Source: Planctomycetota bacterium (lineage in GTDB: Bacteria > Planctomycetota > GCA-002687715 > CAIWVZ01). From it: a DNA stretch of 64,000 bases. The stretch spans positions 544,001-608,000 of the forward strand of contig JBGANV010000002.1 of the NCBI GenBank assembly GCA_044222185.1, read 5' to 3'. Within the stretch, counting starts at the first letter, position 1. Every line of letters starts with the position of its first letter. This document shows, piece after piece, positions 1 through 13,962 of this stretch. The position numbers and the translations under genes were made by a program. The notes beneath the pieces were generated by a model. That model saw nothing but the letters and a program-made list of their open reading frames with translations, was not told the DNA's origin and searched no databases.

Positions 1-1
1 G

Positions 2-3000
2 ATTCGCGGCACGGCCACGGTGCACGATCTTCGATGGCGAGACGCCGCCTTGGATGTCGTGGCGATCGCCGGCGTCTGGAGCGGCGGTCACGGGAGCGTC
101 GACTCACTTTCCGTCACGCGCGGCAGTGCTCACGTCGACGCCACCGGCGTCTCCGTCGATGCTGCGGTCCCGTGGTTCGTGTCCCGCGTCGAGCACGCCA
201 AGGTCGCCGTTCCCGAGGTGGACGAGGTCGCGCACTGGCTCTCACTCGGCTCCGAAGTCCCCCAGTCCCTGGCCCGCGTGCGCGGCGTCGACGTCGAACT
301 CACGAGCGAGGACGGGCGACGCGTGACGGTCGCACGGGGCACCGTCGCGCTGATCGATGTGACGTGTGACGTCACGGGCACGGCCATCCTCCCCGCGCGG
401 CCGGACGCATGGCGCGAGACGGACGTCGGCCTGCGCATCGCGGCCGAAAACTGGGACCTGGAAACGACGCTCTCGACAGTGGGCGCGCTGCCGCCGGTGC
501 GCGGGCGCGTCGACGTGATCGCGAGGATCGATGGGCGCATCGCGGCGCCGCGCGCCTTCGCGACCCTCGCGGCGCGAGATCTTCTCGTCGCAGGCCACGC
601 GTTCGAGCACGCATCCGCCGAGATCGACGTGCAATGGCCGAGAGCCCGCGTGACGTGCATCGAGGTGCACGCGTCCGAGGGCTCGATCACGGGGACGGCG
701 GTCGCGGACCTCGAGCGGCAGCAGATCACGGGCGGCACCTTCGATGCCGACATCACGACGCTCGGGCCCCTCGTGGCTCTCGCAGGGGAGGCTCCGCAGT
801 TGCACGGGCGCGCTCGCGTCCACGGCGTGATCCGCCGACTCGGGCGCGACCAGGTCGCCCTCGATGCAGCCATCACTGCGGACGCGCTCGAGCTGGAGCG
901 CGTCGCCGTGGGCTCGCTGTCGGCACGCGCGAATCTCGATTGGCCGCGGCTGCAGGTCGCCGACTTGAGGGTCGACGGCCCCTCAGGAACGGCGGACGGG
1001 GCGATCGAGCTGGACGTTCGAGACGTCGCATCGACGTCAGGCCATGCGACGTTCGCGCTGGAGACGCCCGGAGTGCGCGCCATCCTCGGCTCGATCTCCG
1101 GCGCACCGGTGATGGCCGACGCGACGAGGCTCGACGGTCACCTGACGAGATCCGCAGACGCGCCCCCCGGATCCTGGGATGGCGACGTCAGGCTGCATTG
1201 CCCCAGGCTCACCGTCGCAGGTCGAACCTTCGACGACGTCGACGCGCACGCGACCTTCCGAGACGGAGGTCGACAGGTTCCGAACTTCACACTCCAGTGG
1301 AACGGCGGTCGTGTCGAGGGCGCGGCCGCGATCGGCGCGCACTCCTCGCTCAGCGCCGATGGCACGGACGTCGACCTTTCGGGGATCGTCGCCGGGCTTG
1401 GCGGCCGCGCATCGTTCCACCTGAGTGCCAGCGGGTCCGCAGCGCATCCCGAGATCGCGGCGCGCGTCGACTGTGACACGGTCACGTTCGAATCGCTGAC
1501 GGCCCGTGTCGGCTTCACGGTCCGACAGTCGGCGGGCGTCATGTCGATCCAGTCGTTGCTGATCGACGGCCCCGAGGTTCACGTCGAAGGGACGCTCGAC
1601 GTGCCGTGTGAAGTGGGAACGGAGGGGGTACGCCTCACTGACGGCGTGGGCCTCGCGGCCGCGATCGTCGGGCGGACGACGCTCCTCGCGCGTTCGAGCC
1701 CCGCCGTCGACGCCTTCCCGTTCTCCGTGCACGACGTCGAATTCCGGATCGACGCGGCCGGCGACGCGATGACCGCGACGGTCGCCGGTCGCGATCCGGG
1801 GTGGATCGACGCCGGCCACGCCACACGGCTCGCCGGGGGTCTGCGAATCGCGGCGCGCTGGACACCGGAGGTCGCGAACGTCGATGTCGTGTTGGGGGAT
1901 GGAGGCCCGGCCCTCGTCACCCTTCGCGCCGAATCGAAGGTGTCATTCGACCTCGTCCGCCTGCGCGAGTCCATCGCGTCGCTCGTGCGGGCCCCGATGC
2001 GAGGGTCCGTGACGTTCACGATCCCAGAGCTCGCGTCGTTCGAACGTCTGATCCCCGACGTCGAGCGGCTGTCGGGAAGTGCGACGGGGCATGTCGATTT
2101 CGAAGGCACGGCGTCGGACCCGCGGCTTGCGGGAGAAGCCACGCTCGGTCCCGCGTCCATTCGCTTCAAGACGGACGCGCCGGCGATCGACGCCACGGCC
2201 CGGCTTCGACTGGCCGACCGCAGGGTGACGATCGACGGGTTCGAGGGTCGGGTGGGCTATGCGCCGGTCTTTGCGCACGGCGCCATCACGTTCACCGACG
2301 CGCGAAACCCGACGGTCGAGCTCGAGACGTCGGGCGAGAACGTCCTGTTGACCCGGAGTGCGGACTTGCGAATCCGGGCCGACGTCCAGGCGACGATCGC
2401 CGGTCCGTTCGATGCGATGAAGGTCACTGGCGTCGTTCGCGTGACGGACGCGGTCTACTCACGACCGATCGATCCGGTTGCGGACGCCACGCCTCTCGTC
2501 GACGAGAACTTCAGACCGTTCCAACTCCGCGACAAGCCGCTCAACGGCATGCGCTTCGACGTCCGGGGAACGGCATCCGAGAGCGTACGCATCGACAACG
2601 GCCTCGTGCGAACGGTGCTCTCCGGAGATGTTCGCCTCCGCGGGACGGGCGAGGCGCCGCGGCTCGAGGGTCGGATCGCAACGAAGACGGGGAGCATCCG
2701 CCTGCCGTTCGCACGCCTGAAGATCGATCAGGCGGAGATCGTCTTTCGGCCGGAAGACGGATTCGCACCGAAGCTCGAGGCGACGGCGCACACGCGAGTG
2801 AAGACCTACGACCTCGCGGTTCGTGCGTCGGGGGTCATCCCGGACGTGGAGCTCGTCGTCGCATCACTTCCGCCGCTGCCGCAGCAGAACGCGTTCCTCC
2901 TCCTGGCGGCGGGTGTCGCGCCGTCGGACCTTCCCAGCGGCGCCGCCACGTGGTCCACGCTGCGACAGACGGGAACGCTCGCCGGGACGAAGCTCCTTTC

Positions 3001-3202
3001 GTCACTCATGGAATCCGCTGACGACGACGAGGAGACCGCGCTCGATCGCTTTTCGTTCGAGACCGGGCGCGACGGCACCCAGGGCGGCACGACGACGATC
3101 GACGCCGAGTTCAAGCTGAGTGAGCACCTGTTCCTCCGAGCCGAGAGGGATCGCTTCGAGGGCAACAACGTGGGTTTCGTGTGGAGGCTTCGCTTCAGAT
3201 GA
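2..3202 (+). CDS. tamB: TamB/AsmA-like translocation and assembly module protein (5'-truncated by window)
   Basis: Frame is open from base 2. Long beta-strand-rich repeats, and a DUF490-like C-terminus ending in amphipathic strands (...GNNVGFVWRLRFR). Stop overlaps the Omp85 gene start (ATGA). Confidence 0.8.
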   Translation: MRGTATVHDLRWRDAALDVVAIAGVWSGGHGSVDSLSVTRGSAHVDATGVSVDAAVPWFVSRVEHAKVAVPEVDEVAHWLSLGSEVPQSLARVRGVDVELTSEDGRRVTVARGTVALIDVTCDVTGTAILPARPDAWRETDVGLRIAAENWDLETTLSTVGALPPVRGRVDVIARIDGRIAAPRAFATLAARDLLVAGHAFEHASAEIDVQWPRARVTCIEVHASEGSITGTAVADLERQQITGGTFDADITTLGPLVALAGEAPQLHGRARVHGVIRRLGRDQVALDAAITADALELERVAVGSLSARANLDWPRLQVADLRVDGPSGTADGAIELDVRDVASTSGHATFALETPGVRAILGSISGAPVMADATRLDGHLTRSADAPPGSWDGDVRLHCPRLTVAGRTFDDVDAHATFRDGGRQVPNFTLQWNGGRVEGAAAIGAHSSLSADGTDVDLSGIVAGLGGRASFHLSASGSAAHPEIAARVDCDTVTFESLTARVGFTVRQSAGVMSIQSLLIDGPEVHVEGTLDVPCEVGTEGVRLTDGVGLAAAIVGRTTLLARSSPAVDAFPFSVHDVEFRIDAAGDAMTATVAGRDPGWIDAGHATRLAGGLRIAARWTPEVANVDVVLGDGGPALVTLRAESKVSFDLVRLRESIASLVRAPMRGSVTFTIPELASFERLIPDVERLSGSATGHVDFEGTASDPRLAGEATLGPASIRFKTDAPAIDATARLRLADRRVTIDGFEGRVGYAPVFAHGAITFTDARNPTVELETSGENVLLTRSADLRIRADVQATIAGPFDAMKVTGVVRVTDAVYSRPIDPVADATPLVDENFRPFQLRDKPLNGMRFDVRGTASESVRIDNGLVRTVLSGDVRLRGTGEAPRLEGRIATKTGSIRLPFARLKIDQAEIVFRPEDGFAPKLEATAHTRVKTYDLAVRASGVIPDVELVVASLPPLPQQNAFLLLAAGVAPSDLPSGAATWSTLRQTGTLAGTKLLSSLMESADDDEETALDRFSFETGRDGTQGGTTTIDAEFKLSEHLFLRAERDRFEGNNVGFVWRLRFR

Positions 3203-5271
3203 ACTGGCGATCCCCCACGTGGGCCGCGATCGTCCTGCTTCTCGCGGGATGCGCATCGCCGCCGCAGGCCGAATCGAGGCCCGACTCGCGATCGGCTCGG
3301 CCGCCGATTCCCATCATCGTCCAGGGACTCGGCTGCGCGACGACCGAGCAACTGCTCGACGCCGGGAAACGCGAGATCGCGGCGTTCCAGGAAGGCGACC
3401 GCCGGGCGACGGCTCTGGACGACGCGACGTTCGCCATGAAACGTTGGCTGCGGGAGAAGGGCCTGGCACACGCGGTCGTCGAATTCGCCATGGAGCCCCA
3501 TGAAGACTCCGTCCAACGAGTCGTCATCACGGTGACGGAAGGCCCACGAGCGACGCTGGCCGCGCTGGCGCTGCAAGGGAACACTTCGTTCTCGACCGCG
3601 CGCCTGATGGAGTTCTTCGACGTCCGCGACGAGGGCGCCGGCCCGGAGGAATCCGTCGTGTACCGGCAGCGCGACGTCGATGCGCGCGTCTCGAACTTGG
3701 AGAGTTTCTACCTCGGTGCGGGCTACTACCGCGTGCACGTCGGCCCTCCCCGCGTCGATTGGTCCGACGGTGACACCAAAGCCCACGTCGTCGTGCCGAT
3801 CGTCGAAGGGCGCCAGTATCTCGTAGGGCGGGTGGACGTCGTTCTCGATGGCCCTGACGATGAAGTCGAAGTGCTGCGGGAGCGAGTCCGCGGATTCGAG
3901 GGACGGCCATACTCGGTCGAGGTCCCCGCGGCCGCCGCGGCGGAAGTGCGCGCGCAGCTCGCAAGTGAGGGGCGGCTCCTCATGCGCGTGTTCGCGAGAA
4001 GCGCCGTCGACGACGACACGGGAATCGTCACGGTGGCGGTGCGAGTCCACGCGGGGCCGCGGGTTCGGGTCGACGGACTCGCGGTGCATGGCAACGAGCG
4101 CACGGACGGCGACTTCATCTTCGAGCAGTCGGGATTGACGTCGGGCGCGATCCTCACGCAAAGCACTCTCGACCGCGCCATCGACGGGCTCTACACGACC
4201 GGGCTGTTCAAGTCGGTGCGCGTGACGAAGTCGCCCGGGGAAGCGCGCGACGACGTGGCACCGACCGACATCGACATCGCCGTCGAGGAGCTCGACGCGC
4301 GGATCGTCGACTTCGAGGCCGGCTACGGAAGTTACGAGCAGCTTCGTGGCGCGGTCCGCTACCGCGATCGAAACCTGTTCGGGACAGGACGGGTGTTGGA
4401 GGCCGTCCCGAGCGTGAGTCTTAGGAGCTACGGCGCCGACGTGAAGTTCTTCGACAACTACCTCCTCGGTCGCGAGAACACGCTGGAGGTGACGGCCGCA
4501 TACGCGTTCCGCGAGGAGCCGTCTTTCGACAGCACGGCGGCGGCCGTGGAGGTCGCCGTGCGTCACCGCTTCGATCACGAGATGTCGGCGCGCGCGGGCT
4601 ATCGGTTCCGCCACTCGGACGCTTCGAACCTGGGACTCGTTCTTGCAGACACGCAGTCCGCCGAGGCCGGGATCACGTCCGGCCCGTTCGCCGAGGTCGA
4701 GTTCGACTCGCGCGACAACGTCTTCATCCCGCACCGTGGAGTGCTCATCAGGGCCGGCTCTGCCTGGAGTACGCCGTTGATCGGGGCCGAGCTCGACTTC
4801 CTCGAGGCGACCGCGTCGATCGCGGCGTTCTTCGAACTGGGGGACGGGACGGTTCTTGCCGCCAGATCTGGCGTGCGAACGCGCGCGATCCTCGACGGAC
4901 GGGCCGACCTTCCCATCCAGGAGCGGTACTTCCTCGGAGGTGAGCACAGCGTTCGTTCGTTTCACGAGAGCGAGCTCGGTCCGTCGGATGGAAACGGCCA
5001 TCCGACCGGCGGGCTTTCGTCTCTCGAGGCTTCGGTCGAGTTGCGACAGCGCCTCGTTGGCGATTTGGAATGCGCGGTTTTCGCAGACGCCGGCGTGGTG
5101 AACGCACGGAGTTGCACGTTTGCGGGTCCGTTCGGGTACGCCGTCGGCGTCGGGCTCAGGTACCTGCTTCCCTTTGGCCCCGTGCGACTCGACGTCGGGT
5201 TCAACCCGGGTGCCCGTTTTGCCGCCGATGATTCGTGGGCACTTCAGTTCTCATTCGGTTTCAGCTTCTGA
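3199..5271 (+). CDS. Omp85 family (TamA/BamA-like) outer-membrane protein with lipoprotein signal
   Basis: ATG 3199 overlaps the tamB TGA. Lipobox LLAG-C, POTRA-like repeats, loop-6 motif ERYFLGGEHSVRSF, GPVRLDVG, C-terminal FSFGFSF. Confidence 0.88.
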   Translation: MNWRSPTWAAIVLLLAGCASPPQAESRPDSRSARPPIPIIVQGLGCATTEQLLDAGKREIAAFQEGDRRATALDDATFAMKRWLREKGLAHAVVEFAMEPHEDSVQRVVITVTEGPRATLAALALQGNTSFSTARLMEFFDVRDEGAGPEESVVYRQRDVDARVSNLESFYLGAGYYRVHVGPPRVDWSDGDTKAHVVVPIVEGRQYLVGRVDVVLDGPDDEVEVLRERVRGFEGRPYSVEVPAAAAAEVRAQLASEGRLLMRVFARSAVDDDTGIVTVAVRVHAGPRVRVDGLAVHGNERTDGDFIFEQSGLTSGAILTQSTLDRAIDGLYTTGLFKSVRVTKSPGEARDDVAPTDIDIAVEELDARIVDFEAGYGSYEQLRGAVRYRDRNLFGTGRVLEAVPSVSLRSYGADVKFFDNYLLGRENTLEVTAAYAFREEPSFDSTAAAVEVAVRHRFDHEMSARAGYRFRHSDASNLGLVLADTQSAEAGITSGPFAEVEFDSRDNVFIPHRGVLIRAGSAWSTPLIGAELDFLEATASIAAFFELGDGTVLAARSGVRTRAILDGRADLPIQERYFLGGEHSVRSFHESELGPSDGNGHPTGGLSSLEASVELRQRLVGDLECAVFADAGVVNARSCTFAGPFGYAVGVGLRYLLPFGPVRLDVGFNPGARFAADDSWALQFSFGFSF

Positions 5272-5363
5272 AAGGACGACAGGCTCAGGTATCTGTGGTC
5301 AACGAAACACATTGCGGCCCGCCGCCCGCGTGATTCAATGACGCCTACGTAGGTGACGCGCGA

Positions 5364-6128
5364 GTGGCAATCGCGCTCATGATGGATCGGCGTGAGATGG
5401 ATCAGGCATCGGTCGAGGGCGTGCTCGCAGAGGTGACGGAGCGTGCGCGGAGCGCATTCCGCGAGAGCCTCTCGTCCATCGTTCTGTACGGCTCCGCCGC
5501 GGAGAACCGCCTCAGGCCCGTCTCGGACGTGAACATTCTTTTCGTGCTGAAGAGCTACGACGTGAATGTGGCCACGCCCTTCGCGGGAACTCTGCGCGGC
5601 GCCGGGGCGGCGATCAGGCTCGCACCCATGTTCATTCTCGAGTCGGAATTGCCGGACGCGATCGACGCGTTCACGGTGAAGTTCGCCGACGTTCTGAGGC
5701 GGCGTCGCGTGCTTTACGGCCACGATCCGTTCACGGACGTCACGATCGATCGGTCGGCGCAGATTCGCCGACTGCTGCAGGTCCTCGCGAACCTGACGCT
5801 CCGGCTGCGGTGTGAAATCACGGCGCACGCCGATCAGTCGAGCGCCCTGACTTCGCTCATCGCATCGTTCGCCGGGCCCCTGAGGTCGGCGGCCGTTTCC
5901 CTGCGGGACGTCCGCGGCGAAGCCACGATCGCGCCACGCGAGGCGCTGGCGGCCGTCGCTCGCAGTTTCGACCCCGAGAGCGCCGATGGATTCCTCGCGT
6001 GCATCACGGACGCGCGCGCGGAGCGGCCGGTTGCCCACGCCGAGGCTCTGCGAACGGCCGTCGGCCTGATGAACCTGGCGCGCGAGATGCACCGGAGCGT
6101 TCGCGTCGCGGCGGGGCCCGTCAGATGA
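5364..6128 (+). CDS. Nucleotidyltransferase-fold (Pol beta/MNT-like) protein
   Basis: Motif SIVLYGSAA...SDVNILFVL (GS...DxD-like, second Asp is Asn) followed by a helical domain. Start uncertain (5364/5379/5396 region). Confidence 0.7.
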   Translation: MAIALMMDRREMDQASVEGVLAEVTERARSAFRESLSSIVLYGSAAENRLRPVSDVNILFVLKSYDVNVATPFAGTLRGAGAAIRLAPMFILESELPDAIDAFTVKFADVLRRRRVLYGHDPFTDVTIDRSAQIRRLLQVLANLTLRLRCEITAHADQSSALTSLIASFAGPLRSAAVSLRDVRGEATIAPREALAAVARSFDPESADGFLACITDARAERPVAHAEALRTAVGLMNLAREMHRSVRVAAGPVR

Positions 6129-7006
6129 ACCCGTTCGACCTGCGGGGCCCCCAGTTTCTCGTGTTCTTCACCATCCTCAGTGCGGTGGTTTTCGCGTTGG
6201 TCTGGTGGCTCACGAGTCCCAGACGTCGGGGGTTCGGCCGGGTCGGCCGTCTGCCGATCCACGATCCACTCCAGATCGCACACCTGCGAGGCGGGGCTGG
6301 CGAGGTCGTCAGCGTGGTCGTTGCGTCCCTGCTCGATCGCGGGTTCCTGTCGACCGATGCCGTGGGACGCCTCCTGTCCGCGCCGAAGGACCGGTCGTCG
6401 CTCCGAGCGATCGAGAAGGCCGTGCTCGACGCGTGTAGGACTCCGAAGACCATCGACGGATGCCGCGTGGACACGGCGGTGCGCGCTCAATGCGCGGAAG
6501 TCGAACGGCAACTGGCGGACGCCGGGTTCTCTCCGACGGCGCCGAACCGATTGGGCGCGCTCATGGTCATCGGCGGGGGGACGCTCGGTCTGCTCGTCGT
6601 CGGCATCGTGAAAGTCGTCATCGCGCATCAGCGGGGCCGGTCGAATACGGGCATCCTGTTCGCCCTGCTCGCCATCGACGTCTCCATGGGGGTGTGGCTC
6701 GTTCGGACGCTGCACGCGCGCGTCGCGCGCCAGGTGATCGGCAGCATCAGGGTGCTGTTCTCGGACCTGCGTCGCCGCGCTGTCCGACTGAAGAGGGGAG
6801 AGTCGCCGGTCGACGTGGAGTTCTTCGTAGCCGTGTTCGGCCTGGGGCCCCTTCCGCGCACGTTGTGTCCCGAGCGCGACCATCTCACTCCGCGGCCCGC
6901 CGTGTCGGATCCCGCCGTGATCGGGGGCTGCTCGACCATCGACGTGAGCGGCTGCGGCGGTGGCGGCGATGGTGGTGGAGGAGGGTGCGGTGGATGTGGA
7001 AGCTGA
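6125..7006 (+). CDS. TIGR04222-type membrane protein with Gly/Cys-rich C-terminal tail
   Basis: N-terminus MNPFDLRGPQFLVFF, IAHLRGG motif, three hydrophobic segments, tail GGCSTIDVSGCGGGGDGGGGGCGGCGS. ATGA overlap with the upstream gene. Confidence 0.85.
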   Translation: MNPFDLRGPQFLVFFTILSAVVFALVWWLTSPRRRGFGRVGRLPIHDPLQIAHLRGGAGEVVSVVVASLLDRGFLSTDAVGRLLSAPKDRSSLRAIEKAVLDACRTPKTIDGCRVDTAVRAQCAEVERQLADAGFSPTAPNRLGALMVIGGGTLGLLVVGIVKVVIAHQRGRSNTGILFALLAIDVSMGVWLVRTLHARVARQVIGSIRVLFSDLRRRAVRLKRGESPVDVEFFVAVFGLGPLPRTLCPERDHLTPRPAVSDPAVIGGCSTIDVSGCGGGGDGGGGGCGGCGS

Positions 7007-7884
7007 CGTCGAGGGCCCCGCGCGCGCGCGCCGAGCTCTCGCGTGACGCGTTTGGGTTGAGCTATCGAAGCCAGCTCGTCGCCGGCGTCGCGGTGAATCT
7101 CCATCGGATCGACTGCCTCGAGATCCTGATGGACGATTGGATCGATCGGCCTGCTCGTGACCTCGACGGGCTGACGCTGCTGGCGGACCGCATTCCGATC
7201 ACGCTCCATGGCGTCGGGCTCGGCCTCGCGTCCGTCGAGCCCGTGGACGAGCGGCGGCTCGCAGCGACTGCGCGCCTCGTCGATCGACTGCGACCCGTGG
7301 CGTGGTCCGAACATCTCGCCTTCGTGCGGGCGGGCGGGATCGAGATCGGACACCTGGCGACCCCGCCGCGCACCAACGCCGTGCTCGACGGCACGATCCG
7401 CAACGTCGAGCGCGCGACGAAGGTCGTCGGAAGCGCACCGCTGCTCGAGAACGTCGCGTCGTTGATCGAGATGCCGTCGCGACTTGGTGAGACGGATTTC
7501 CTGCGCGCGGTGCTCGCCGCCACGCGCTCCGATCTCCTGATCGACCTGCACAACCTGCACGCCAATGCCAGCAATTTCGGCTTCGATCCGCTGGCGTTCC
7601 TCGCCGACCTGCCGCCCGATCGCATCAGGCAGGTCCATCTGGCCGGGGGCCGGATGATCGGAGATCCGGGTGCGCAGCGCGTGCTCGACGATCATCTGCA
7701 CGAGGTGCCTTCGGTGGTGTTCGAACTCCTGTCGTCGCTGACGGCTCGGATCACCGGGCCGCTCTTGGTGATCCTCGAGCGCGACGGCCGCTATCCGCCG
7801 ATCGAGTCCCTGATCGCCGAGCTCGACCACGCACGAGTCGTGGTCACACGAGCCCGCGCGCGAAAGCTCCTGACGACGCAATGA
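6994..7884 (+). CDS. DUF692 family multinuclear non-heme iron-dependent oxidative enzyme (MNIO)
   Basis: Motifs HGVGLGL, WSEHLAF, LLENV, DLHNLHAN, QVHLAGG, DDH, LERD. The likely start ATG 6994 overlaps the end of the upstream gene. Confidence 0.92.
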   Translation: MWKLTSRAPRARAELSRDAFGLSYRSQLVAGVAVNLHRIDCLEILMDDWIDRPARDLDGLTLLADRIPITLHGVGLGLASVEPVDERRLAATARLVDRLRPVAWSEHLAFVRAGGIEIGHLATPPRTNAVLDGTIRNVERATKVVGSAPLLENVASLIEMPSRLGETDFLRAVLAATRSDLLIDLHNLHANASNFGFDPLAFLADLPPDRIRQVHLAGGRMIGDPGAQRVLDDHLHEVPSVVFELLSSLTARITGPLLVILERDGRYPPIESLIAELDHARVVVTRARARKLLTTQ

Positions 7885-8096
7885 CGCTCCAGGAGTTCCT
7901 GGCTCGGCTCTACGTCGACGCCGCATTTCGCGCCGCCTTCCTCGCGGATCGGGAGCGCGTGGCGCGATCCGCAAACCTGCCCCCGGAGGAGATCCGAGAG
8001 GTCGTGCGCCTCGACGGCGCCGCACTGGAACTCGCCGCCGCGAGCTTCGCGCACAAGCGGGCACGCAAGTCCGTTCAGCGCCCGCGCGAGCGTTGA
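7881..8096 (+). CDS. Small helical MNIO-partner-like protein (71 aa)
   Basis: ATGA overlap with the MNIO gene. LARLYVDAAFRAAFLAD...LELAAASFAHKR resembles the small helical domains found beside DUF692 genes. Confidence 0.7.
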   Translation: MTLQEFLARLYVDAAFRAAFLADRERVARSANLPPEEIREVVRLDGAALELAAASFAHKRARKSVQRPRER

Positions 8097-8333
8097 CTCG
8101 GCTCCCGGTCGACCGCCGGGGTCCAAGCTCTGGCTATCGGTGCCCCGTCGCTCGATGCCAAGCTCGGCGAGCCGACGGACAAGCTGCTGGACGATCGAGA
8201 CGGCCTCTCCGCGAGGACGGGGGAGTCGGCGAGCGTCACTGAAGCGTGACGGATCTTGGAGTCGGCGGCGTGCCTCTTCCCGAGGATTCGTGGCTCCGTG
8301 CGGCGTGGTACGGGGCTTGCACCCGTTCGGGGC

Positions 8334-10151
8334 ATGAGTCGCTCGACACTCTGCGTCCTCGCGATCGTCACACTCCTGCTCGGCTCTCCGCTCACCGCGC
8401 AGTCGACCTGGGGCCGGCGCATGGTGACGGAGGGCGGACGGTCAATGCTGGTCGACGATCGCGATGCCCTCTTCCGCCTGATGACCGATCGGATCGGGAG
8501 CGGCGATGCCGACGAGCCCGCGATCTACCCGACGCTCGGCAAACTCGTGGCAGCCGCAAAGCCGGGCGAAACGGTGATCCAGTCGGTCGCGGTCCTCATG
8601 GCGGAGTCGAAGCGATTCGACGACCGCCTCGTCGCGACGATCGACCTGCTCCTCGAGCGGGGCTGGCCCGGCGGGCCCATGGGCAAGGCGGCGTTTCTCG
8701 CCGCGTTCGCCGACGCCCTGAACCGCGCGGCAGCGATCTCGGGCGACGGCGCGGCGGGAGACGAGGCGCTCGCGCGCGTCTGGGCCGCGCGAAGGCTCGG
8801 CGGAACCTCGGAGGAAGTCCCCGCTCGGGTCGCCGGTCGGGCGTCGGATCTCGTCGCCGCGTTCGACGCGAACGCGCTGATGAGCAAGCCCATCGGCTTC
8901 TACGAATGGACAGATGAACTGTCGCACCTGTTTCGCCAGGACCGCTTCCTGCAGCAGTCCGTCGACATGAAGGCGAATGGTGGGGCGTGGCTCACCGAAG
9001 CGTCGCGTGTCCTGTTGGAGGAGCCGGCGCTCCACGGTGCGTATTCCGCGTGGCGCAGGGTTGCGACGACGCTCTCGAATCCCCTCGCCATGGCGTCGCT
9101 CACGGATCTGAGCGCCGCGCCGCGTTCCGAGGCTGCGTTCTTCCCGCCGAGTCGGTCTCACGAGGCGGAGCTGCTCGTGAAGCTGTATGGCAACCGTCCC
9201 ATCCCGGACGGGCATGTGTTCATGGACGACCTCGTCGCTGGGATCCGAAGAGGCGCGGTCGACCTCACGCCGCAGGCGTCGTCCGGTTGGTACGACTGGC
9301 AAGGCTGGGCGCTGGAGCCGTTGATCCGGCGCAGCACGTCGCCGGAGGAGAAGAAGGTCGACTGGGAGTCGGGGTACGCGAAGCATTGCGAAGCGGTGTT
9401 TCGTGCGTTGCTGACGCAACGTCGCGAGACACATGCCAAGCAGCTTCTTTCTCCGCCCTGCGGCGGGTCGGCGGGCACGCGACGCGTCGTGATCCACGTG
9501 GCGCCGAGACTGACGGTCGAGCCGCACGTGACGCTTTACCGCCGGACGTCCGAGTCGTACGCGTTCGTTCGCAGGAGTCTCGAGCGACTCCTCGGACGTG
9601 ACGTGCTTGCGACGACGCGTCTCGTCTCGGCCGACGGAGCCGTCGGCGAAACGGTTCTTGGCGGACTGGAACGGCAAGAGCGTTGGTTCGCCGATCTCGC
9701 CGCCCTCGCGTGCCGCGAAGTCGGCGGGGAGGTCCGGTGGCTCGGTCAGGGCCTCGATGAAGCGGCAGCACTCCGCAGCGCGGATCGCGCGGCGGCAGCC
9801 CTGTCTGCGGGCCTCACCGCCGACGACCTCGCCCACGATCCACGCGTGATGGTTCCCGTCGGCTTCGACCTCGGGCGGAAGGAGGTCCGTTGCTGGGCCG
9901 TCGTCGGCGTCGCCACCTGCGAAGTCACCGCGTTCTATGCGCGGCCCCCCGAGTGCCGTTTGGAACCGTCCGCCACGGAGCGCGCTTCCGACGCCGTCAC
10001 CTCGTTCGCTACCGCCGTTCTCTCCGTGCCCTACGAAGTCCAGATCGAGTGCTCGCTGAAGCAACCGCTCACGCGCACCGAGCTGCGCAAACTCTGCGAC
10101 GCCTGCACGACGCTCGATCAGATCAAGAGGGCGCTGGGGGCGGTGAGGTAG
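8334..10151 (+). CDS. Secreted hypothetical protein, possibly distant DUF3160-like
   Basis: Signal peptide MSRSTLCVLAIVTLLLGSPLTA-Q. Motifs KPIGFYEW, GWYDWQGWAL and RETHAKQ are reminiscent of DUF3160; the family call is weak. Confidence 0.6.
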   Translation: MSRSTLCVLAIVTLLLGSPLTAQSTWGRRMVTEGGRSMLVDDRDALFRLMTDRIGSGDADEPAIYPTLGKLVAAAKPGETVIQSVAVLMAESKRFDDRLVATIDLLLERGWPGGPMGKAAFLAAFADALNRAAAISGDGAAGDEALARVWAARRLGGTSEEVPARVAGRASDLVAAFDANALMSKPIGFYEWTDELSHLFRQDRFLQQSVDMKANGGAWLTEASRVLLEEPALHGAYSAWRRVATTLSNPLAMASLTDLSAAPRSEAAFFPPSRSHEAELLVKLYGNRPIPDGHVFMDDLVAGIRRGAVDLTPQASSGWYDWQGWALEPLIRRSTSPEEKKVDWESGYAKHCEAVFRALLTQRRETHAKQLLSPPCGGSAGTRRVVIHVAPRLTVEPHVTLYRRTSESYAFVRRSLERLLGRDVLATTRLVSADGAVGETVLGGLERQERWFADLAALACREVGGEVRWLGQGLDEAAALRSADRAAAALSAGLTADDLAHDPRVMVPVGFDLGRKEVRCWAVVGVATCEVTAFYARPPECRLEPSATERASDAVTSFATAVLSVPYEVQIECSLKQPLTRTELRKLCDACTTLDQIKRALGAVR

Positions 10152-10268
10152 TGTTGGCGTGACACGAACACCTCATTCGAGGTTCGATCCGTGCGAGGAG
10201 TTCAGGACCTGATCACCCGTCACCGACCACGCCACCAGACCTGCGACGGATGATCCTCACGTCCGCCC

Positions 10269-10739
10269 TCACTTCGTCACCGGCCGCTGCGATGCCGCCA
10301 TCAGCGCGGCGACGTGGCGCTGGAAGTCGTCGTGCATGATCTTCATGGACGGACTCGTGAACATCTTGCGGAAGCCGGTCTCGCGCACCATGGAGTGCAT
10401 GCGGTTCGTCCAGCTCGCGAAGTAGTCGTCGGGGATCTGGCCGTGACGATGGGAGAACCACGCGATCTCGAAGAGCGAGAGCTGCATGAGATTCATGTAG
10501 TACTCGCGGACCTCCTGCGGCGTCGTGAAGTCCTCATCTTCGCGGTCGACCTCGGCCAGCGTGGGGTCGTCCACGCGCATGCGCCGAAGCTGCATCTGGA
10601 GCTCGACCAGCTTGGCGAAGTTCGCCACGTGTTGCGCCTTGCGGGCATCACGGAACTGGATGGCCGTGTAGATGAGACCTCCAGCGATGGCGAACGCGCT
10701 GAGGCCCTGCAGGATGATCTGGTAGTGGATGGGTTCCAT
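10269..10739 (-). CDS. Small membrane-anchored protein (DUF4760/DUF6082-like)
   Basis: N-terminal TM (IILQGLSAFAIAGGLIYTAIQ) then a helical domain. Strong GC3 codon bias. Confidence 0.7.
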   Translation of the reverse strand: MEPIHYQIILQGLSAFAIAGGLIYTAIQFRDARKAQHVANFAKLVELQMQLRRMRVDDPTLAEVDREDEDFTTPQEVREYYMNLMQLSLFEIAWFSHRHGQIPDDYFASWTNRMHSMVRETGFRKMFTSPSMKIMHDDFQRHVAALMAASQRPVTK

Positions 10740-10870
10740 GGTGGTTTCGTCGTCGCGGCTCGATCGAGGCGCAGACTGTAGCGGGATGACGCGCGGTTCG
10801 AACGGCGGCGGCGTATACTCGCGCCTCGAACGGAGGTCGTCGCATGGCACGGGATGAAGCGTCGCTCGGG

Positions 10871-12175
10871 ATGCGGTTGGTGTTCGCGGTCACGTTGGTC
10901 GCGAGTCTCGGCGTCCAGGCACAGAAGCCGGCGGGAGATCCCAAACCGGCCGGCGGAGCCGCACCGAAGGATGCCGCCGAGGTGATCGACACCATGCGCA
11001 CGACGCTCCTCGGCGCGAAGTCCGTGAGCTTCCACACGAAGTTCACGAGCGGGTTCGGGCCCATCGTGGCGCTCGGCGCCGACCTGCAGGCGACCGTTCG
11101 ACGGAGCGACGACGGCGCCATGACCGGCCTGCGCATGACCGGGAAGTTCCTGCCCGGCGGGCCCAACTTCGATGCGGCCTCCGACGGGACGCGCGTCCGC
11201 GCCATCGATCGCGACGCGAAGATCTACGAAGACGGTCCGTTCAGCGCCGACGCCATGGCCATGCAACCGCCGGGCATGGGCGGCGGACTCCCCATGCTGC
11301 TCTGGGCGTTCCCCGTCGAGTTCCTGCAAACGAAAGACCTGGCGATCCAGGAGGGCGACACGGCGCAGTTGAAGCCGCCGGTGACGATGGACGGCGTCCT
11401 GTGCGACGTCGTCGAAGTCGCACGCAAGGTGGAGATCAAGGGCATCCCGCCGCACACGACGATCTACATCTACACGGTGGGGCGTGGCGACCACCTGCTT
11501 CGCAAGATGAGCCGCGAGAACGTCACTTCCGAGCCGGGAAGTCTCCGCAGCCCGATCCCTCGCGAGTTCAACCAGTGGAAGGTGAACCCGGCCGTCGATG
11601 ACGCGACGTTCACGCTCGACGTCAGCGGACTGAAGGAAGGCGAGTTCCGCGTGAAGGGGCCGGGCTCGGGCGGCATGGACGGGCCTCCCGGCGGCATGCC
11701 CGCGGGACTCGGCAAGAGCGGTCCGTCGTTCGGTCTGAAGGCCGGCGACAAACCCTCGGACTTCGCGTTGAAGGACACGAGCGGCAAGGAGCAGAAGCTC
11801 GCGGCCTACGCCAAGAAGACGCTGATCGTGTGCTTCACCGAAGCATCCGACGCATCGGCCGAGGGGTTCGTCGGCAAGCTGAAGGCGAAGGTCGGCGACA
11901 AGGCGTCGCTTCTCGAACTGGTCGTGGACCACGGGTCTCCACCGGACACGAAGAGGATGAAGACGCCGGCGTGGCCGCGCTGCCTGTCGGCTGACGGTGT
12001 GGACGATGCGTGGAGCATCAACCTGTTTCCCATGCTCGTCGTGATCGGGGGAGATGGGAAGGTCGTGACGTCGATGCCCACGGGCCTTTCCGGCGGCGTG
12101 CCCGTCGACACCGTGATCGAAGGGTTCACGAAGAAGCTCAACGCCTACCTGAAGAACCCCGCGAAGGGCTGGTGA
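10871..12175 (+). CDS. Secreted protein with LolA/DUF2092-like N-domain and degenerate thioredoxin-like C-domain
   Basis: Signal peptide. ASDG..V..ID...K.Y and NP.VDDATF features. C-terminal GDKPSDFALKD...WSINLFPMLVVIGGDGKV lacks CxxC. Confidence 0.65.
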   Translation: MRLVFAVTLVASLGVQAQKPAGDPKPAGGAAPKDAAEVIDTMRTTLLGAKSVSFHTKFTSGFGPIVALGADLQATVRRSDDGAMTGLRMTGKFLPGGPNFDAASDGTRVRAIDRDAKIYEDGPFSADAMAMQPPGMGGGLPMLLWAFPVEFLQTKDLAIQEGDTAQLKPPVTMDGVLCDVVEVARKVEIKGIPPHTTIYIYTVGRGDHLLRKMSRENVTSEPGSLRSPIPREFNQWKVNPAVDDATFTLDVSGLKEGEFRVKGPGSGGMDGPPGGMPAGLGKSGPSFGLKAGDKPSDFALKDTSGKEQKLAAYAKKTLIVCFTEASDASAEGFVGKLKAKVGDKASLLELVVDHGSPPDTKRMKTPAWPRCLSADGVDDAWSINLFPMLVVIGGDGKVVTSMPTGLSGGVPVDTVIEGFTKKLNAYLKNPAKGW

Positions 12176-12513
12176 TGGCGCGGATCACTGCGGCGGCGTT
12201 TCGGAAGGCGGCGATGGCGATGCCGGAGGCGATCGAGGCGCCGCACTTCGAGCGCACGTCGTTTCGCGTGGGAAAGAAGATCTTCGCCACGATGACGGCC
12301 GACGGGACCGAGGCCATGGTGAAGGTCACGCCGAAGGAGCGGGTTCACGCGCTGCTCGACGCCCATCCGGGCGCGTTCTTCAGCTACGGCGGATGGACCG
12401 AGCGCCTCGGCGCTCTCGGCATCCGTCTGGGGAAGGCCGATTCCGCCATCGTGCGAGCACTCCTGATCGACGCGTGGCGTCAGGCCGCGCCGAAACGCCT
12501 CAGGTCGGAATGA
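12175..12513 (+). CDS. MmcQ/YjbR family DNA-binding protein
   Basis: AMAMPEAIEAPHFERTSFRVGKKIFA...LLIDAWRQAAPKRL. TGATG overlap with the upstream gene. Confidence 0.88.
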   Translation: MARITAAAFRKAAMAMPEAIEAPHFERTSFRVGKKIFATMTADGTEAMVKVTPKERVHALLDAHPGAFFSYGGWTERLGALGIRLGKADSAIVRALLIDAWRQAAPKRLRSE

Positions 12514-12521
12514 CGCCGTGA

Positions 12522-12608
12522 GTGGCGCGAACTCCGCCGCAGCCCCATAATCGTCGCCACATCGAGGAGACCGCCACGCGGGTTCGAACGCGGGCGGGAG
12601 TTCGCCAC
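12522..12608. repeat. Imperfect intergenic inverted repeat (about 87 bp)
   Basis: GTGGCGCGAACTCCGCCGC at 12522 versus the reverse complement of GCGGGCGGGAGTTCGCCAC ending at 12608. Confidence 0.55.
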
Positions 12609-12627
12609 ATAGGCACGAGGAGACGTC

Positions 12628-13947: not shown

Positions 13948-13962
13948 TCGGCCACGGAGACG

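What the first reader, a model, noticed from the sequence alone, without database searches (positions are those of the whole stretch)
5364..8096. Coupled four-gene MNIO operon that may modify a membrane-tethered Gly/Cys tail
Seen: four overlapping genes (ATGA at 6125, 13-bp overlap at 6994-7006, ATGA at 7881). They encode a nucleotidyltransferase-fold protein, a TIGR04222-type membrane protein ending GGCSTIDVSGCGGGGDGGGGGCGGCGS (4 Cys), a DUF692 enzyme with its iron-ligand motifs apparently intact, and a 71-aa partner. Known: characterised DUF692/MNIO enzymes (MbnB, TglH, ChrH, bufferin and oxazolin maturases) oxidatively modify Cys in peptide substrates and need a partner protein; I know of no characterised product for TIGR04222 tails. 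Inference: no free precursor peptide is visible, so the substrate is probably the tail of the membrane protein. That would give a membrane-anchored RiPP-like modification, possibly a metal chelator.
Basis: partly seen in the sequence, partly recalled or inferred. Interest (0 to 1): 0.85.

Follow-up and report, generated by a model that had tools for sequence, protein, structure and literature searches.

The report
Membrane protein Cys-tail maturation cassette
Four tightly coupled genes form a widespread but untested cassette in which an iron enzyme most likely modifies the cysteine-rich tail of its neighbouring membrane protein, an idea already proposed in print in 2025.

Summary
Four overlapping genes at 5364-8096 encode:
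- an NTase-fold protein;
- a TIGR04222 membrane protein ending ...CGGCGS;
- a PF05114 MNIO with all eight MbnB-type iron ligands;
- a 71-aa protein.

The cassette is not a local accident. Of the 63 related loci with enough flank, 62 have the Cys-tail protein, 56 the small protein, 47 the NTase and 43 all four. No other gene recurs in more than 10 of 81 loci.

Tails are strongly conserved: 62 of 68 carry CGGCG in the last 13 residues, and Cys is followed by Gly in 368 of 409 cases.

The 71-aa protein has an NHLP/LigA leader-like fold. It has no conserved Cys. It matches the N-terminal module of 183-210-aa proteins that follow more distant MNIOs. It also occurs naturally fused to the C-terminus of a full MNIO, so it is most likely a partner, not a substrate.

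The NTase has an invariant D-x-N where the second metal carboxylate should be.

The positive-inside rule and an AF2 model suggest the tail faces the cytoplasm. The published view places it in the periplasm.

The central hypothesis (TIGR04222 tails as MNIO substrates) was published in Microbial Genomics in 2025. My searches found no experimental test. I rate this a new member of a known, uncharacterised kind, of moderate interest.

The parts
5364..6128 (+). NTase-fold protein (254 aa, P0001), AadA-like two-domain layout, with an invariant G43-S44 ... S54-D55-x-N57 ... E95 signature. Asn replaces the second metal-binding carboxylate.
   Evidence: Sub-threshold Polbeta/NTP_transf_2 and ANT/MntA hits. 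Profile against the PDB gives AadA 7uy4 at E 4.4e-6, with SDvN aligned to SDID. Asn is present in 49 of 49 aligned members and in 2 distant homologues. The gene is present in 47 of 63 loci with enough flank. AGGTGA lies 7 nt before GTG 5364.
6125..7006 (+). TIGR04222 membrane protein (293 aa, P0002). It has three transmembrane helices (8-30, 139-169, 176-211), a conserved soluble domain at 31-138, a basic loop at 194-230 and a short helix at 228-238.
   Evidence: TIGR04222 85.4 bits against a cut-off of 43. AF2 with 68 sequences gives pLDDT 87.2 and pTM 0.79. Present in 62 of 63 loci.
6887..7003 (+). Disordered C-terminal Gly/Cys tail (residues 255-293) ending CGGCGS. This is the proposed MNIO substrate.
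   Evidence: pLDDT is below 50 for residues 268-287. Across the family, CGGCG lies within the last 13 residues in 62 of 68. Cys in the last 60 residues has a median of 6 (range 3-9), against a median of 1 in the rest of the protein. Cys is followed by Gly in 368 of 409 cases.
6994..7884 (+). MNIO / DUF692 enzyme (296 aa, P0003). It is BufB/HvfB-like but below both equivalog cut-offs. A GTG at 6985 is an alternative start.
   Evidence: PF05114 212.7 bits. BufB 184.5 against a cut-off of 310, HvfB 142.3 against 360. Eight of eight iron ligands are conserved.
7881..8096 (+). 71-aa five-helix protein (P0004) of the NHLP/LigA leader-like fold with a basic tail. It is the proposed minimal MNIO partner.
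   Evidence: NF038399 36.6 bits against a cut-off of 40; 61 of 64 family members hit it. AF2 pLDDT 88.8. The best Foldseek matches are Os1348 6lk7 and SonA. It matches the N-terminal module of 183-210-aa post-MNIO proteins. Natural fusions to MNIO exist.

Best explanation
This is a self-contained four-gene maturation cassette. The MNIO, a cytoplasmic multi-iron oxidase, oxidatively converts cysteines of the [G/S]-C-G repeats in the disordered C-terminal tail of the TIGR04222 membrane protein encoded just upstream. By analogy with its nearest characterised relatives BufB and HvfB, the likely products are 5-thiooxazole (or oxazolone/thioamide) heterocycles.

The 71-aa NHLP/LigA-like protein acts as a minimal partner subunit of the enzyme. 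It takes the place of the DUF2063 partner of bufferin systems.

The NTase-fold protein is a third conserved component. It may perform a second modification, or it may be a non-catalytic scaffold that recognises the substrate.

The product stays tethered to the membrane, probably on the cytoplasmic face, and most plausibly binds copper or another soft metal.

Shown: gene content, coupling, conservation, intact iron ligands, the tail motif, and the homology and fusions of the partner.

Inferred: that the tail is the substrate, the chemistry, the topology, metal binding, and any role for the NTase.
For: Cassette conservation among MNIO relatives of 46-59% identity from many phyla:
- Of 63 loci with at least 1800 bp upstream and at least 350 bp downstream, 62 have the TIGR04222-like gene, 56 the small protein, 47 the NTase and 43 all four.
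- Only these four genes of window 1-14000 are shared with the loci.
- No other family recurs in more than 10 of 81 loci.

Tail conservation:
- 62 of 68 have CGGCG in the last 13 residues.
- There are 3-9 Cys in the last 60 residues, against a median of 1 elsewhere.
- Gly follows Cys in 368 of 409 cases.
- The commonest Cys spacing is 4 (142 of 341).

Enzyme competence:
- Eight of eight MbnB ligands are conserved.
- The best NCBIfam matches are the Cys-modifying BufB and HvfB.

Partner status of the 71-aa protein:
- It has no conserved Cys. Only L7 and K59 are invariant, and the C-terminal tail is variable and basic.
- Its profile hits the first ~65 residues of 183-210-aa proteins directly after more distant MNIOs (E 1.8e-11 to 6.6e-15). 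Three of these four cassettes (L103-L105) also contain CG-tail proteins; L102 shows none, and an NTase homologue was detected only in L103 and L104.
- Those long forms align collinearly with DUF2063 partners (hhalign E 2.3e-4, probability 44.6%, 177 columns).
- Natural fusions exist. P0149 is a complete MNIO (PF05114 residues 10-275) followed by the domain at residues 304-364, which is 46% identical to P0004. Its exact sequence is seen on 25 contigs, and a 363-aa cluster member on 12.
- In a reciprocal search, 9 of 13 non-own hits of the small-protein profile lie next to an MNIO.

Independent proposal: PMC12452194 reached the same substrate hypothesis for TIGR04222 proteins.
Against: - No experiment exists. 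Nothing here shows a mass change, binding or metal affinity.
- PMC12452194 reports that a third of genomes with TIGR04222 genes lack any MNIO, and that over a quarter of TIGR04222 proteins lack C-proximal Cys. The tail can therefore exist without this enzyme.
- The closest solved relatives of the 71-aa protein (Os1348, SonA, NHLP) are RiPP precursors, not partners. Enzyme-precursor fusions are known in borosins (recalled), so the fusion argument is not decisive.
- The small-protein family itself shows no similarity to DUF2063 (hhalign probability 0.2%). The long-form link is only 45% probable.
- The window's own tail is at the poor end of the family, with 4-5 Cys and no CGSS repeats.
- The MNIO is below the BufB and HvfB equivalog cut-offs, so the chemistry may differ.
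- The cytoplasmic topology contradicts the periplasmic placement stated in PMC12452194 for other family members. It rests on a crude charge count, in which the TM2-TM3 loop (RGR) goes against the rule.
Confidence: 0.6

Rival explanations
1. The 71-aa NHLP/LigA-like protein is the real RiPP precursor. Its variable basic C-terminus would be the core, modified by the MNIO on non-Cys residues. The TIGR04222 protein would be an accessory component, such as an export, immunity or metal-handling protein.
For: - Sequence and fold matches are all to RiPP precursor leader domains. NF038399 Os1348 is hit by 61 of 64 members. SonA and nitrile hydratase alpha are hit at E ~1e-3. Foldseek puts Os1348 and SonA at the top.
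- A conserved leader with a hypervariable tail is the usual precursor pattern.
- From the titles and abstracts listed, some MNIOs act on Asp, Tyr or homocitrulline.
Against: - After the invariant K59-R60 the tail can be as short as ~4 residues, for example KKQGHK or KRGRVA in the fusion.
- There is no double-Gly cleavage site and no conserved residue in the tail.
- The same module is the N-terminus of 183-210-aa proteins in the partner position.
- This reading does not explain the extremely conserved Cys tail next door.
- The nearest enzyme relatives are Cys-modifying.
Confidence: 0.08
2. The Gly/Cys tail is not enzymatically modified. It binds metal ions or an Fe-S cluster directly through its thiols. 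The MNIO then acts on another substrate, or supplies or receives iron, and the linkage reflects a shared metal-handling function.
For: - TIGR04222 genes occur without MNIO genes in 490 of 1372 complete genomes (Table 3 of PMC12452194).
- Cys-Gly repeats can chelate metals without modification (general knowledge).
Against: - In this MNIO subfamily the pairing is nearly obligate: 70 of 72 loci with room, translationally coupled.
- No alternative substrate gene is conserved.
- The invariant C-G context resembles the C-G sites of known MNIO substrates such as EGKCG (family name in PMC12452194).
Confidence: 0.12
3. The tail is modified as proposed, but the membrane protein is only a carrier. The modified tail is translocated to the periplasm or cleaved off and released as a free peptide metallophore.
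For: - PMC12452194 predicts periplasmic exposure of the C-terminal segments.
- A moderately hydrophobic segment at 231-244 precedes the tail.
- Bufferins act in the periplasm (abstract of PMC12452194).
Against: - No protease or exporter recurs with the cassette.
- AF2 models the fourth hydrophobic segment as an 11-residue helix, too short to span a membrane.
- K+R counts favour N-out / C-in: 6.66 in loop 194-230, against 0.40 in the N-tail and 1.66 in the TM2-TM3 loop.
Confidence: 0.12

Closest known systems
TIGR04222-MNIO gene clusters described bioinformatically in Microb Genom 2025 (PMC12452194)
   Same: A TIGR04222 membrane protein with a C-proximal Ser/Gly/Cys segment sits directly before an MNIO. 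There is no DUF2063 gene. The MNIO is close to bufferin/oxazolin enzymes. The tail is proposed as substrate.
   Different: - The main text names neither an NTase-fold gene nor an NHLP-like small protein: 0 occurrences of 'nucleotidyl', 'NHLP' or 'nitrile hydratase'.
[quoted passage not shown]
- It places the tails in the periplasm, whereas my charge analysis favours the cytoplasm.
Bufferins (BufA/BufB/BufC, with DoxX)
   Same: An MNIO of the same broad clade, with BufB the best NCBIfam match. Cys is the target and copper binding is the proposed role. The window's own genome carries a canonical MNIO-DUF2063-DoxX set on contig 15.
   Different: - In bufferins the substrate is a small Sec-exported peptide, not a 293-aa integral membrane protein.
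- The bufferin partner is a ~260-aa DUF2063-RRE protein, not a 71-aa helical domain.
- Bufferin clusters have no NTase.
- The BufB equivalog cut-off is not reached (184.5 against 310).
Oxazolins / HvfABC (EGKCG repeats) and methanobactin MbnABC
   Same: A multi-iron MNIO acts on Cys followed by a small residue, needs a partner protein, and gives a copper-binding product. The ligand set is identical to that of MbnB.
   Different: - HvfB scores 142.3 against a cut-off of 360, and MbnB 26.4 against 325.
- The precursors of those systems are soluble or secreted.
- Their partners (HvfC, MbnC) are unrelated by sequence to P0004.
NHLP / LigA-type RiPP leader domains (Os1348 of Pseudomonas sp. Os17, PDB 6lk7; SonA of the split borosin SonM-SonA)
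   Same: P0004 has the same small all-helical fold and sequence signature.
   Different: - Os1348 and SonA are precursors whose C-terminal core is modified. Os1348 lies with GNAT, HEXXH and SagB-like genes (PMC7726476, abstract and section 15).
- P0004 has no conserved core, follows an MNIO, and occurs fused to the enzyme or as the N-terminus of longer partner-like proteins.
AadA-type ANT(3'')(9) adenylyltransferases
   Same: About 250-aa two-domain layout with a GS...SD motif. The profile E-value is 4.4e-6 to 7uy4.
   Different: - Asn replaces the second Asp of the D-x-D pair in all 49 aligned members.
- All resistance-family scores are far below their cut-offs, for example ANT(9) at 21.4 against 340.
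- Nothing suggests aminoglycoside modification.
Microcin B17 precursor McbA (recalled)
   Same: A Gly/Ser/Cys-rich core converted to heterocycles. The tail profile touches 6grh only at E 4.7, which is not significant.
   Different: The enzymology differs (McbBCD cyclodehydratase/dehydrogenase, recalled). McbA is a free exported peptide that acts as a gyrase toxin.

Membership tests
MNIO / DUF692 (PF05114) | Pfam model above the gathering score over its full length | tested here: met
   212.7 bits against a cut-off of 25; residues 20-283 cover profile positions 2-261 of 263.
MNIO / DUF692 (PF05114) | The His/Glu/Asp ligand set for two to three iron ions (MbnB H54, H90, E133, D163, H192, E239, D208, H210; PMC9060507 passages) | tested here: met
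   Mapped to H72, H107, E152, D184, H215, E262, D232 and H234 through the 7dz9 alignment. All are invariant in 60 sequences except H215, which is at least 90% conserved.
MNIO / DUF692 (PF05114) | Oxidative modification of a peptide or protein substrate, with a partner protein | not testable with these tools
   Needs biochemistry. Only genomic linkage and natural fusions were seen.
BufB bufferin maturase (NF050167) / HvfB (NF003818) equivalogs | Score above the curated equivalog cut-off | tested here: not met
   184.5 against 310 for BufB, and 142.3 against 360 for HvfB. The enzyme is related but forms a separate subfamily.
TIGR04222 domain-containing membrane protein | Model above cut-off, plus a C-terminal low-complexity Gly/Ser/Cys region | tested here: met
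   85.4 bits against a cut-off of 43; residues 14-244 cover profile positions 1-229 of 229. The tail is shown.
Os1348 family NHLP clan protein (NF038399) | Score above the curated cut-off of 40 bits | tested here: not met
   P0004 scores 36.6 bits at E 3.5e-9, just under the cut-off. 61 of 64 relatives hit the model at E <= 0.01. The fold agrees with 6lk7 (probability 0.97, TM 0.57, E 0.11). It works like the clan but is a borderline member.
PME-type 1 partner (DUF2063, PF09836) | DUF2063 Pfam signature with an RRE-type C-terminal domain, ~260 aa | tested here: not met
   P0004 has no DUF2063 hit. hhalign of A1 against 28 DUF2063 proteins gives probability 0.2%. At 71 aa there is no room for an RRE.
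PME-type 2 partner (DUF2063-like by structure, no Pfam signature; PMC12452194) | Encoded after the MNIO, with an N-terminal helical domain related to NGO1945/TglI | tested here: inconclusive
   The position criterion is met. The long-form homologues align to DUF2063 at E 2.3e-4 with probability 44.6%. Foldseek on the P0004 model did not list 3dee or 8hi7, which does not exclude them.
Nucleotidyltransferase fold (Pol-beta superfamily; PF01909 / PF18765) | hG[GS] x9-13 Dh[DE]h motif plus a third carboxylate (motif recalled) | tested here: not met
   G43-S44 and D55 are present and E95 is invariant. The second carboxylate is Asn57 in 49 of 49 members. Pfam scores are below the cut-offs. The fold assignment rests on the AadA profile hit. 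No model of P0001 was made.
Bufferin-type BGC | Sec-signal precursor (DUF2282 / Buf_6/12Cys / EGKCG), DUF2063 and often DoxX | tested here: not met
   None of these is in the cassette. The genome's only DUF2063 lies on contig 15 beside another MNIO and a DoxX.

The most novel reading that the evidence does not exclude
The cassette builds a cytoplasm-facing, permanently membrane-tethered string of Cys-derived heterocycles on a full-length integral membrane protein. That would be a RiPP-type modification used as a protein post-translational modification rather than to make a peptide. The maturase would have three parts. In it, a domain that elsewhere serves as a RiPP leader (NHLP/LigA fold) has been recruited in trans, free or fused, as the enzyme's partner. 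An NTase-fold protein with an invariant D-x-N site would supply a second chemical step or recognise the substrate.
Probability: 0.2. Interest if true: 0.75.

Novelty: new member of a known kind. Interest (0 to 1): 0.5.

Why it matters
MNIOs are one of the largest enzyme families in peptide natural-product biosynthesis, and every characterised substrate is a soluble or exported peptide or small protein. Showing that an MNIO modifies the tail of an integral membrane protein would extend this chemistry to protein-level modification. It would also give TIGR04222 proteins a first function; PMC12452194 collected more than 3,500 of them.

This analysis turns the published hypothesis into a defined experiment:
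- a minimal four-gene set with no other conserved genes;
- a sharply defined target motif ([G/S]-C-G repeats ending CGGCG);
- a candidate minimal partner, for which natural fusions argue that it works together with the enzyme;
- an unexplained third component, the D-x-N NTase-fold protein;
- a testable disagreement about which side of the membrane the tail faces.

The small-protein family has 641 cluster representatives at E <= 1e-10 in 1.84 billion, so the system is widespread in soil and sediment phyla.

Tried and rejected
- **Complex prediction of MNIO (A2) with the 71-aa protein (A1).** The tool's verdict was 'no answer'. The scores were 0.88, 0.87 and 0.87, but one control (partner kept, MNIO replaced) scored 0.75. 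This is neither support nor evidence against binding.
- **Fold searches with the full TIGR04222 model.** Foldseek on the PDB gave nothing at E <= 0.001. VIA-align wide gave only generic three-helix-bundle matches over residues 3-210, with Z up to 10.9.
- **Profile of the TIGR04222 family against PDB sequences.** It hit only Gly/Ser linker artefacts.
- **The search for related loci with the small-protein alignment.** It failed because no stretch was conserved enough. I replaced it with a profile search of 401 genomes.
- **Promoter and terminator scan of 5000-8600.** It found none, which is uninformative in a 68% GC genome.
- **GC profile.** It shows no compositional island.
- **ESM Atlas look-up of the NTase.** It returned only hypothetical-protein clusters, with NTP_transf_2 on 14-30% of members.
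- **Free precursor in the intergenic regions.** The ORFs there have no homologues in the related loci, so I rejected this idea.
- **Earlier findings of this scan.** Nothing was returned.


Full report
**Observation**

Four ORFs lie on the + strand: 5364-6128, 6125-7006, 6994-7884 and 7881-8096.
- The overlaps are as described: ATGA at 6125-6128, ATG 6994 lying 13 bp before the stop at 7004-7006, and ATGA at 7881-7884.
- An in-frame GTG at 6985 is an alternative MNIO start. The genes overlap either way.
- AGGTGA sits 7 nt before the GTG at 5364.
- N2 and P3 of the membrane protein are at least 90% conserved, which fixes its start at ATG 6125 rather than the upstream GTG at 5999.

**What the four proteins are**

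*Gene 3* is an MNIO.
- PF05114 scores 212.7 bits against a cut-off of 25.
- Its best NCBIfam matches are BufB (184.5, cut-off 310) and HvfB (142.3, cut-off 360), so it is related to both but belongs to neither equivalog.
- PMC9060507 (passages) names the MbnB ligands His54, His90, Glu133, Asp163, His192 and Glu239, plus Asp208 and His210 for the third iron.
- Through the alignment to MbnB 7dz9 these map to H72, H107, E152, D184, H215, E262, D232 and H234.
- In 60 family members all are invariant except H215, which is at least 90% conserved.

*Gene 2* reaches TIGR04222 at 85.4 bits against a cut-off of 43.

*Gene 1* is only sub-threshold for the Pfam NTase models. A profile of 49 family members reaches the adenylyltransferase AadA (7uy4) at E 4.4e-6. 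In that alignment the family's GSaAegrlratSDvN lies on AadA's GSAVDGGLKPHSDID.

*Gene 4* (71 aa, no Cys) scores 36.6 bits on NF038399, 'Os1348 family NHLP clan protein', whose cut-off is 40. It also hits LigA weakly.

**Is the arrangement conserved?**

A scan of one genome per species with the MNIO gave 351 pattern matches. Of these, 119 encode relatives and the best 80 were kept (46-59% identity). They come from Acidobacteriota, Planctomycetota, Methylomirabilota/Rokubacteria, Myxococcota, Pseudomonadota, Chloroflexota, a Heliomicrobium and others.

By tblastn at E <= 1e-3, before allowing for cut contigs:
- TIGR04222-like gene: 73 of 80 loci
- small protein: 68 of 80
- NTase: 49 of 80

Among the 63 loci with at least 1800 bp upstream and 350 bp downstream:
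- TIGR04222-like gene: 62
- small protein: 56
- NTase: 47
- all four: 43

Among 72 loci with at least 950 bp upstream, 70 have the TIGR04222 gene.

Of all ORFs in window 1-14000, only the four cassette genes and their antisense shadows have homologues in these loci. After all-against-all clustering, no further family occurs in more than 10 of 81 loci. The cassette is therefore a self-contained module with no conserved protease, exporter or regulator.

Its distribution is patchy. The small-protein profile hit 13 of 401 genomes sampled from the window's phylum, the window's own genome included. It hit none of 4 genomes from the same family.

**The tail**

I aligned 68 TIGR04222 proteins: the window plus 67 loci. 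Six of the 73 loci with a hit were dropped by a 260-330 aa length filter; the frame read-throughs or fragments visible are L011, L020, L030, L051, L075 and L078. In one search:
- 62 have CGGCG within the last 13 residues.
- 45 end exactly in CGGCG[GSAL].
- The last 60 residues hold 3-9 Cys (median 6), against a median of 1 in the rest of the protein.
- Gly follows Cys in 368 of 409 cases.
- The residue before Cys is Gly (227) or Ser (164).
- The commonest Cys-to-Cys spacing is 4 (142 of 341).

The window's tail, with 4 Cys in the last 27 residues and ending CGGCGS, is a sparse example. C288 and G287-G290 are invariant. A strictly conserved [G/S]-C-G repeat next to a Cys-modifying type of MNIO is the main argument that the tail is the substrate.

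**The 71-aa protein**

In 64 aligned members:
- The first ~60 residues are conserved. The consensus is xxLEAFLARxYVDxxARARFLADPxGEAxxAGLxxxExxALxxIDRxGLELAAxSFxRKR, with L7 and K59 invariant.
- The rest is a variable basic tail.
- In the wider 65-protein set, 17 of the 65 proteins hold any Cys, and none is conserved.
- 61 of 64 hit NF038399, 41 of 64 hit LigA and 21 of 64 hit Frankia_peptide.

The family profile's best PDB sequence hits are SonA, the discrete borosin precursor with a LigA domain (E ~1e-3). Nitrile hydratase alpha subunits and Os1348 (6lk7) follow.

An AF2 model (pLDDT 88.8) has five helices. Foldseek puts Os1348 first (probability 0.97, TM 0.57, E 0.11) and then SonA in its SonM complexes. 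No E-value is significant. Os1348 is an 85-aa presumed precursor in a GNAT/HEXXH/SagB cluster (PMC7726476, abstract and section 15).

By fold alone, then, the protein looks like a RiPP leader domain. Three results argue that here it is a partner.

1. *It matches the start of longer proteins in the partner position.* In four more distant loci the gene after the MNIO (30-37% identical to ours) encodes 183-210 aa.
   - The first ~65 residues match the small-protein profile at E 1.8e-11 to 6.6e-15.
   - A shared extension follows (LPxTxxxLGxxF ... KHxxDAxxF ... YExxWLE).
   - Three of these four loci also hold a CG-tail protein and two hold the NTase.
2. *The long forms resemble known partners.* They align collinearly over 177 columns with 28 DUF2063 partners at E 2.3e-4, though the probability is only 44.6%. 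The short family alone shows no such similarity.
3. *Natural fusions exist.* An exhaustive search of 1.84 billion representatives found 1561 relatives at E <= 1e-3 and 641 at E <= 1e-10.
   - I fetched 4 of the 150 listed, choosing those where the domain lay far from the N-terminus.
   - P0149 is a complete MNIO (PF05114 residues 10-275, 225 bits) followed by a linker and the domain at residues 304-364, which is 46% identical to P0004.
   - P0029 and P0055 are N-terminally cut versions of the same layout. P0112 keeps only a remnant.
   - The exact P0149 sequence is on 25 contigs (longest 146,562 bp), and a 363-aa cluster member is on 12. This makes it unlikely to be a one-off sequencing or assembly error.
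   - The fusion ends four residues after the conserved KR, which leaves no room for a core peptide.
   - Five other listed proteins with an offset domain (P0008, P0060, P0083, P0084, P0098) were not examined.

In the reciprocal test, 9 of 13 non-own hits of the small-protein profile lie next to an MNIO. That includes all 5 hits with E <= 1e-15. Of the 4 without an MNIO, one sits at a contig end.

**The NTase-fold protein**

- G43, S44, S54, D55, N57, E95, K106, D109 and R113 are invariant in 49 sequences.
- The position that holds the second metal-binding Asp in AadA is Asn in 49 of 49 members. It is also Asn in two distant homologues (SDIN, SDHN).
- Whether this leaves an active enzyme with altered metal binding, or a pseudoenzyme used as a scaffold, cannot be decided here.
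- It is the least constant member: present in 47 of 63 loci.

**Topology**

- Family-averaged hydropathy gives three clear transmembrane segments and a fourth weaker hydrophobic stretch at 231-244.
- AF2 with 68 sequences (pLDDT 87.2, pTM 0.79) models helices 8-30, 139-169 and 176-211, a short helix 228-238, and a disordered tail from about 255.
- Mean K+R counts are 0.40 for the N-tail, 1.66 for the TM2-TM3 loop and 6.66 for loop 194-230.
- By the positive-inside rule this favours N-terminus out, with the 31-138 domain, loop 194-230 and the tail all in the cytoplasm, where the MNIO is.
- This is an inference. The RGR in the short loop goes against it. PMC12452194 states that the C-terminal segments of the family members it modelled are probably periplasmic.

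**Literature**

- 'TIGR04222' occurs in three held papers.
- PMC12452194 (passages and section 18 read) reports that 40% of signal-peptide-less Cys proteins encoded before MNIO genes are TIGR04222 proteins. It also reports that their MNIOs resemble bufferin/oxazolin enzymes, that no DUF2063 gene accompanies them, and that a subset is likely to be modified at the C-terminal segment.
- The same paper notes that a third of genomes with TIGR04222 lack an MNIO.
- Its main text does not contain 'nucleotidyl', 'NHLP' or 'nitrile hydratase'. It mentions 'adjamnio-V', very small proteins after MNIO genes without structural homology, which may be this family. The supplements that would settle this were closed.
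- Searches for MNIO with nucleotidyltransferase and with transmembrane or thiooxazole from 2025 onward (listing only) showed no experimental study of a TIGR04222 system.

**Verdict**

The central idea, however, is already published as a hypothesis. This work adds five points:
- the minimal conserved gene set;
- the sharply conserved tail motif;
- the identity and probable partner role of the 71-aa protein, including natural enzyme fusions;
- the invariant D-x-N of the NTase-fold protein;
- a topology reading that differs from the published one.

None of the biochemistry has been shown.

Noticed in passing
window 20-3202 and 3181-5271 (+): Directly upstream lie a TamB-domain protein (1060 aa, PF04357 at 101.7 bits) and an Omp85/POTRA protein (696 aa). 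They overlap by 22 bp and look like a TAM-type outer-membrane assembly pair, so the organism is diderm. They are not conserved with the cassette in other genomes.
   Followed up: partly
own genome contig 15, locus L086 (G000:C15:62098-65325): The same genome carries a canonical bufferin-type set: an MNIO (PF05114, 368 bits), a DUF2063 protein and a DoxX protein in a row. Two further MNIO loci lie on contigs 2 and 14. The genome holds only one TIGR04222 gene and one Os1348-like gene, both in this cassette.
   Followed up: partly
L023, L027, L054, L065: These four related loci carry two TIGR04222-like genes upstream of the MNIO, adjacent in L023 and L027, which suggests duplicated substrates.
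   Followed up: no
L102-L105 (G374, G362, G306, G176): More distant cassettes replace the ~70-aa protein with 183-210-aa proteins that share its N-terminal module. L102 has the MNIO and a long partner but no visible CG-tail protein; a 530-aa membrane protein lies upstream of the MNIO instead.
   Followed up: partly
P0149, P0029, P0055 (metagenome proteins): These are natural fusions of an MNIO with the small NHLP-like domain through a 25-40-residue linker. The exact P0149 sequence is seen on 25 contigs.
   Followed up: yes
window 8256-10151 (+) and 10269-10850 (-): Downstream is a 631-aa ORF with no Pfam family and a signal-peptide-like stretch (…LCVLAIVTLLLGSPLTAQS) near its N-terminus. Next comes a DUF6082 protein on the opposite strand. 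Neither is linked to the cassette in other genomes.
   Followed up: no
P0002 residues 47-72 (window 6263-6340): The soluble domain of the membrane protein has a nearly invariant DPY..A.LRGG..E........L..R motif, in a helix-helix-beta-hairpin unit of the AF2 model. Its role is unknown. It may be a docking site for the maturase. It could not be fold-searched alone.
   Followed up: partly
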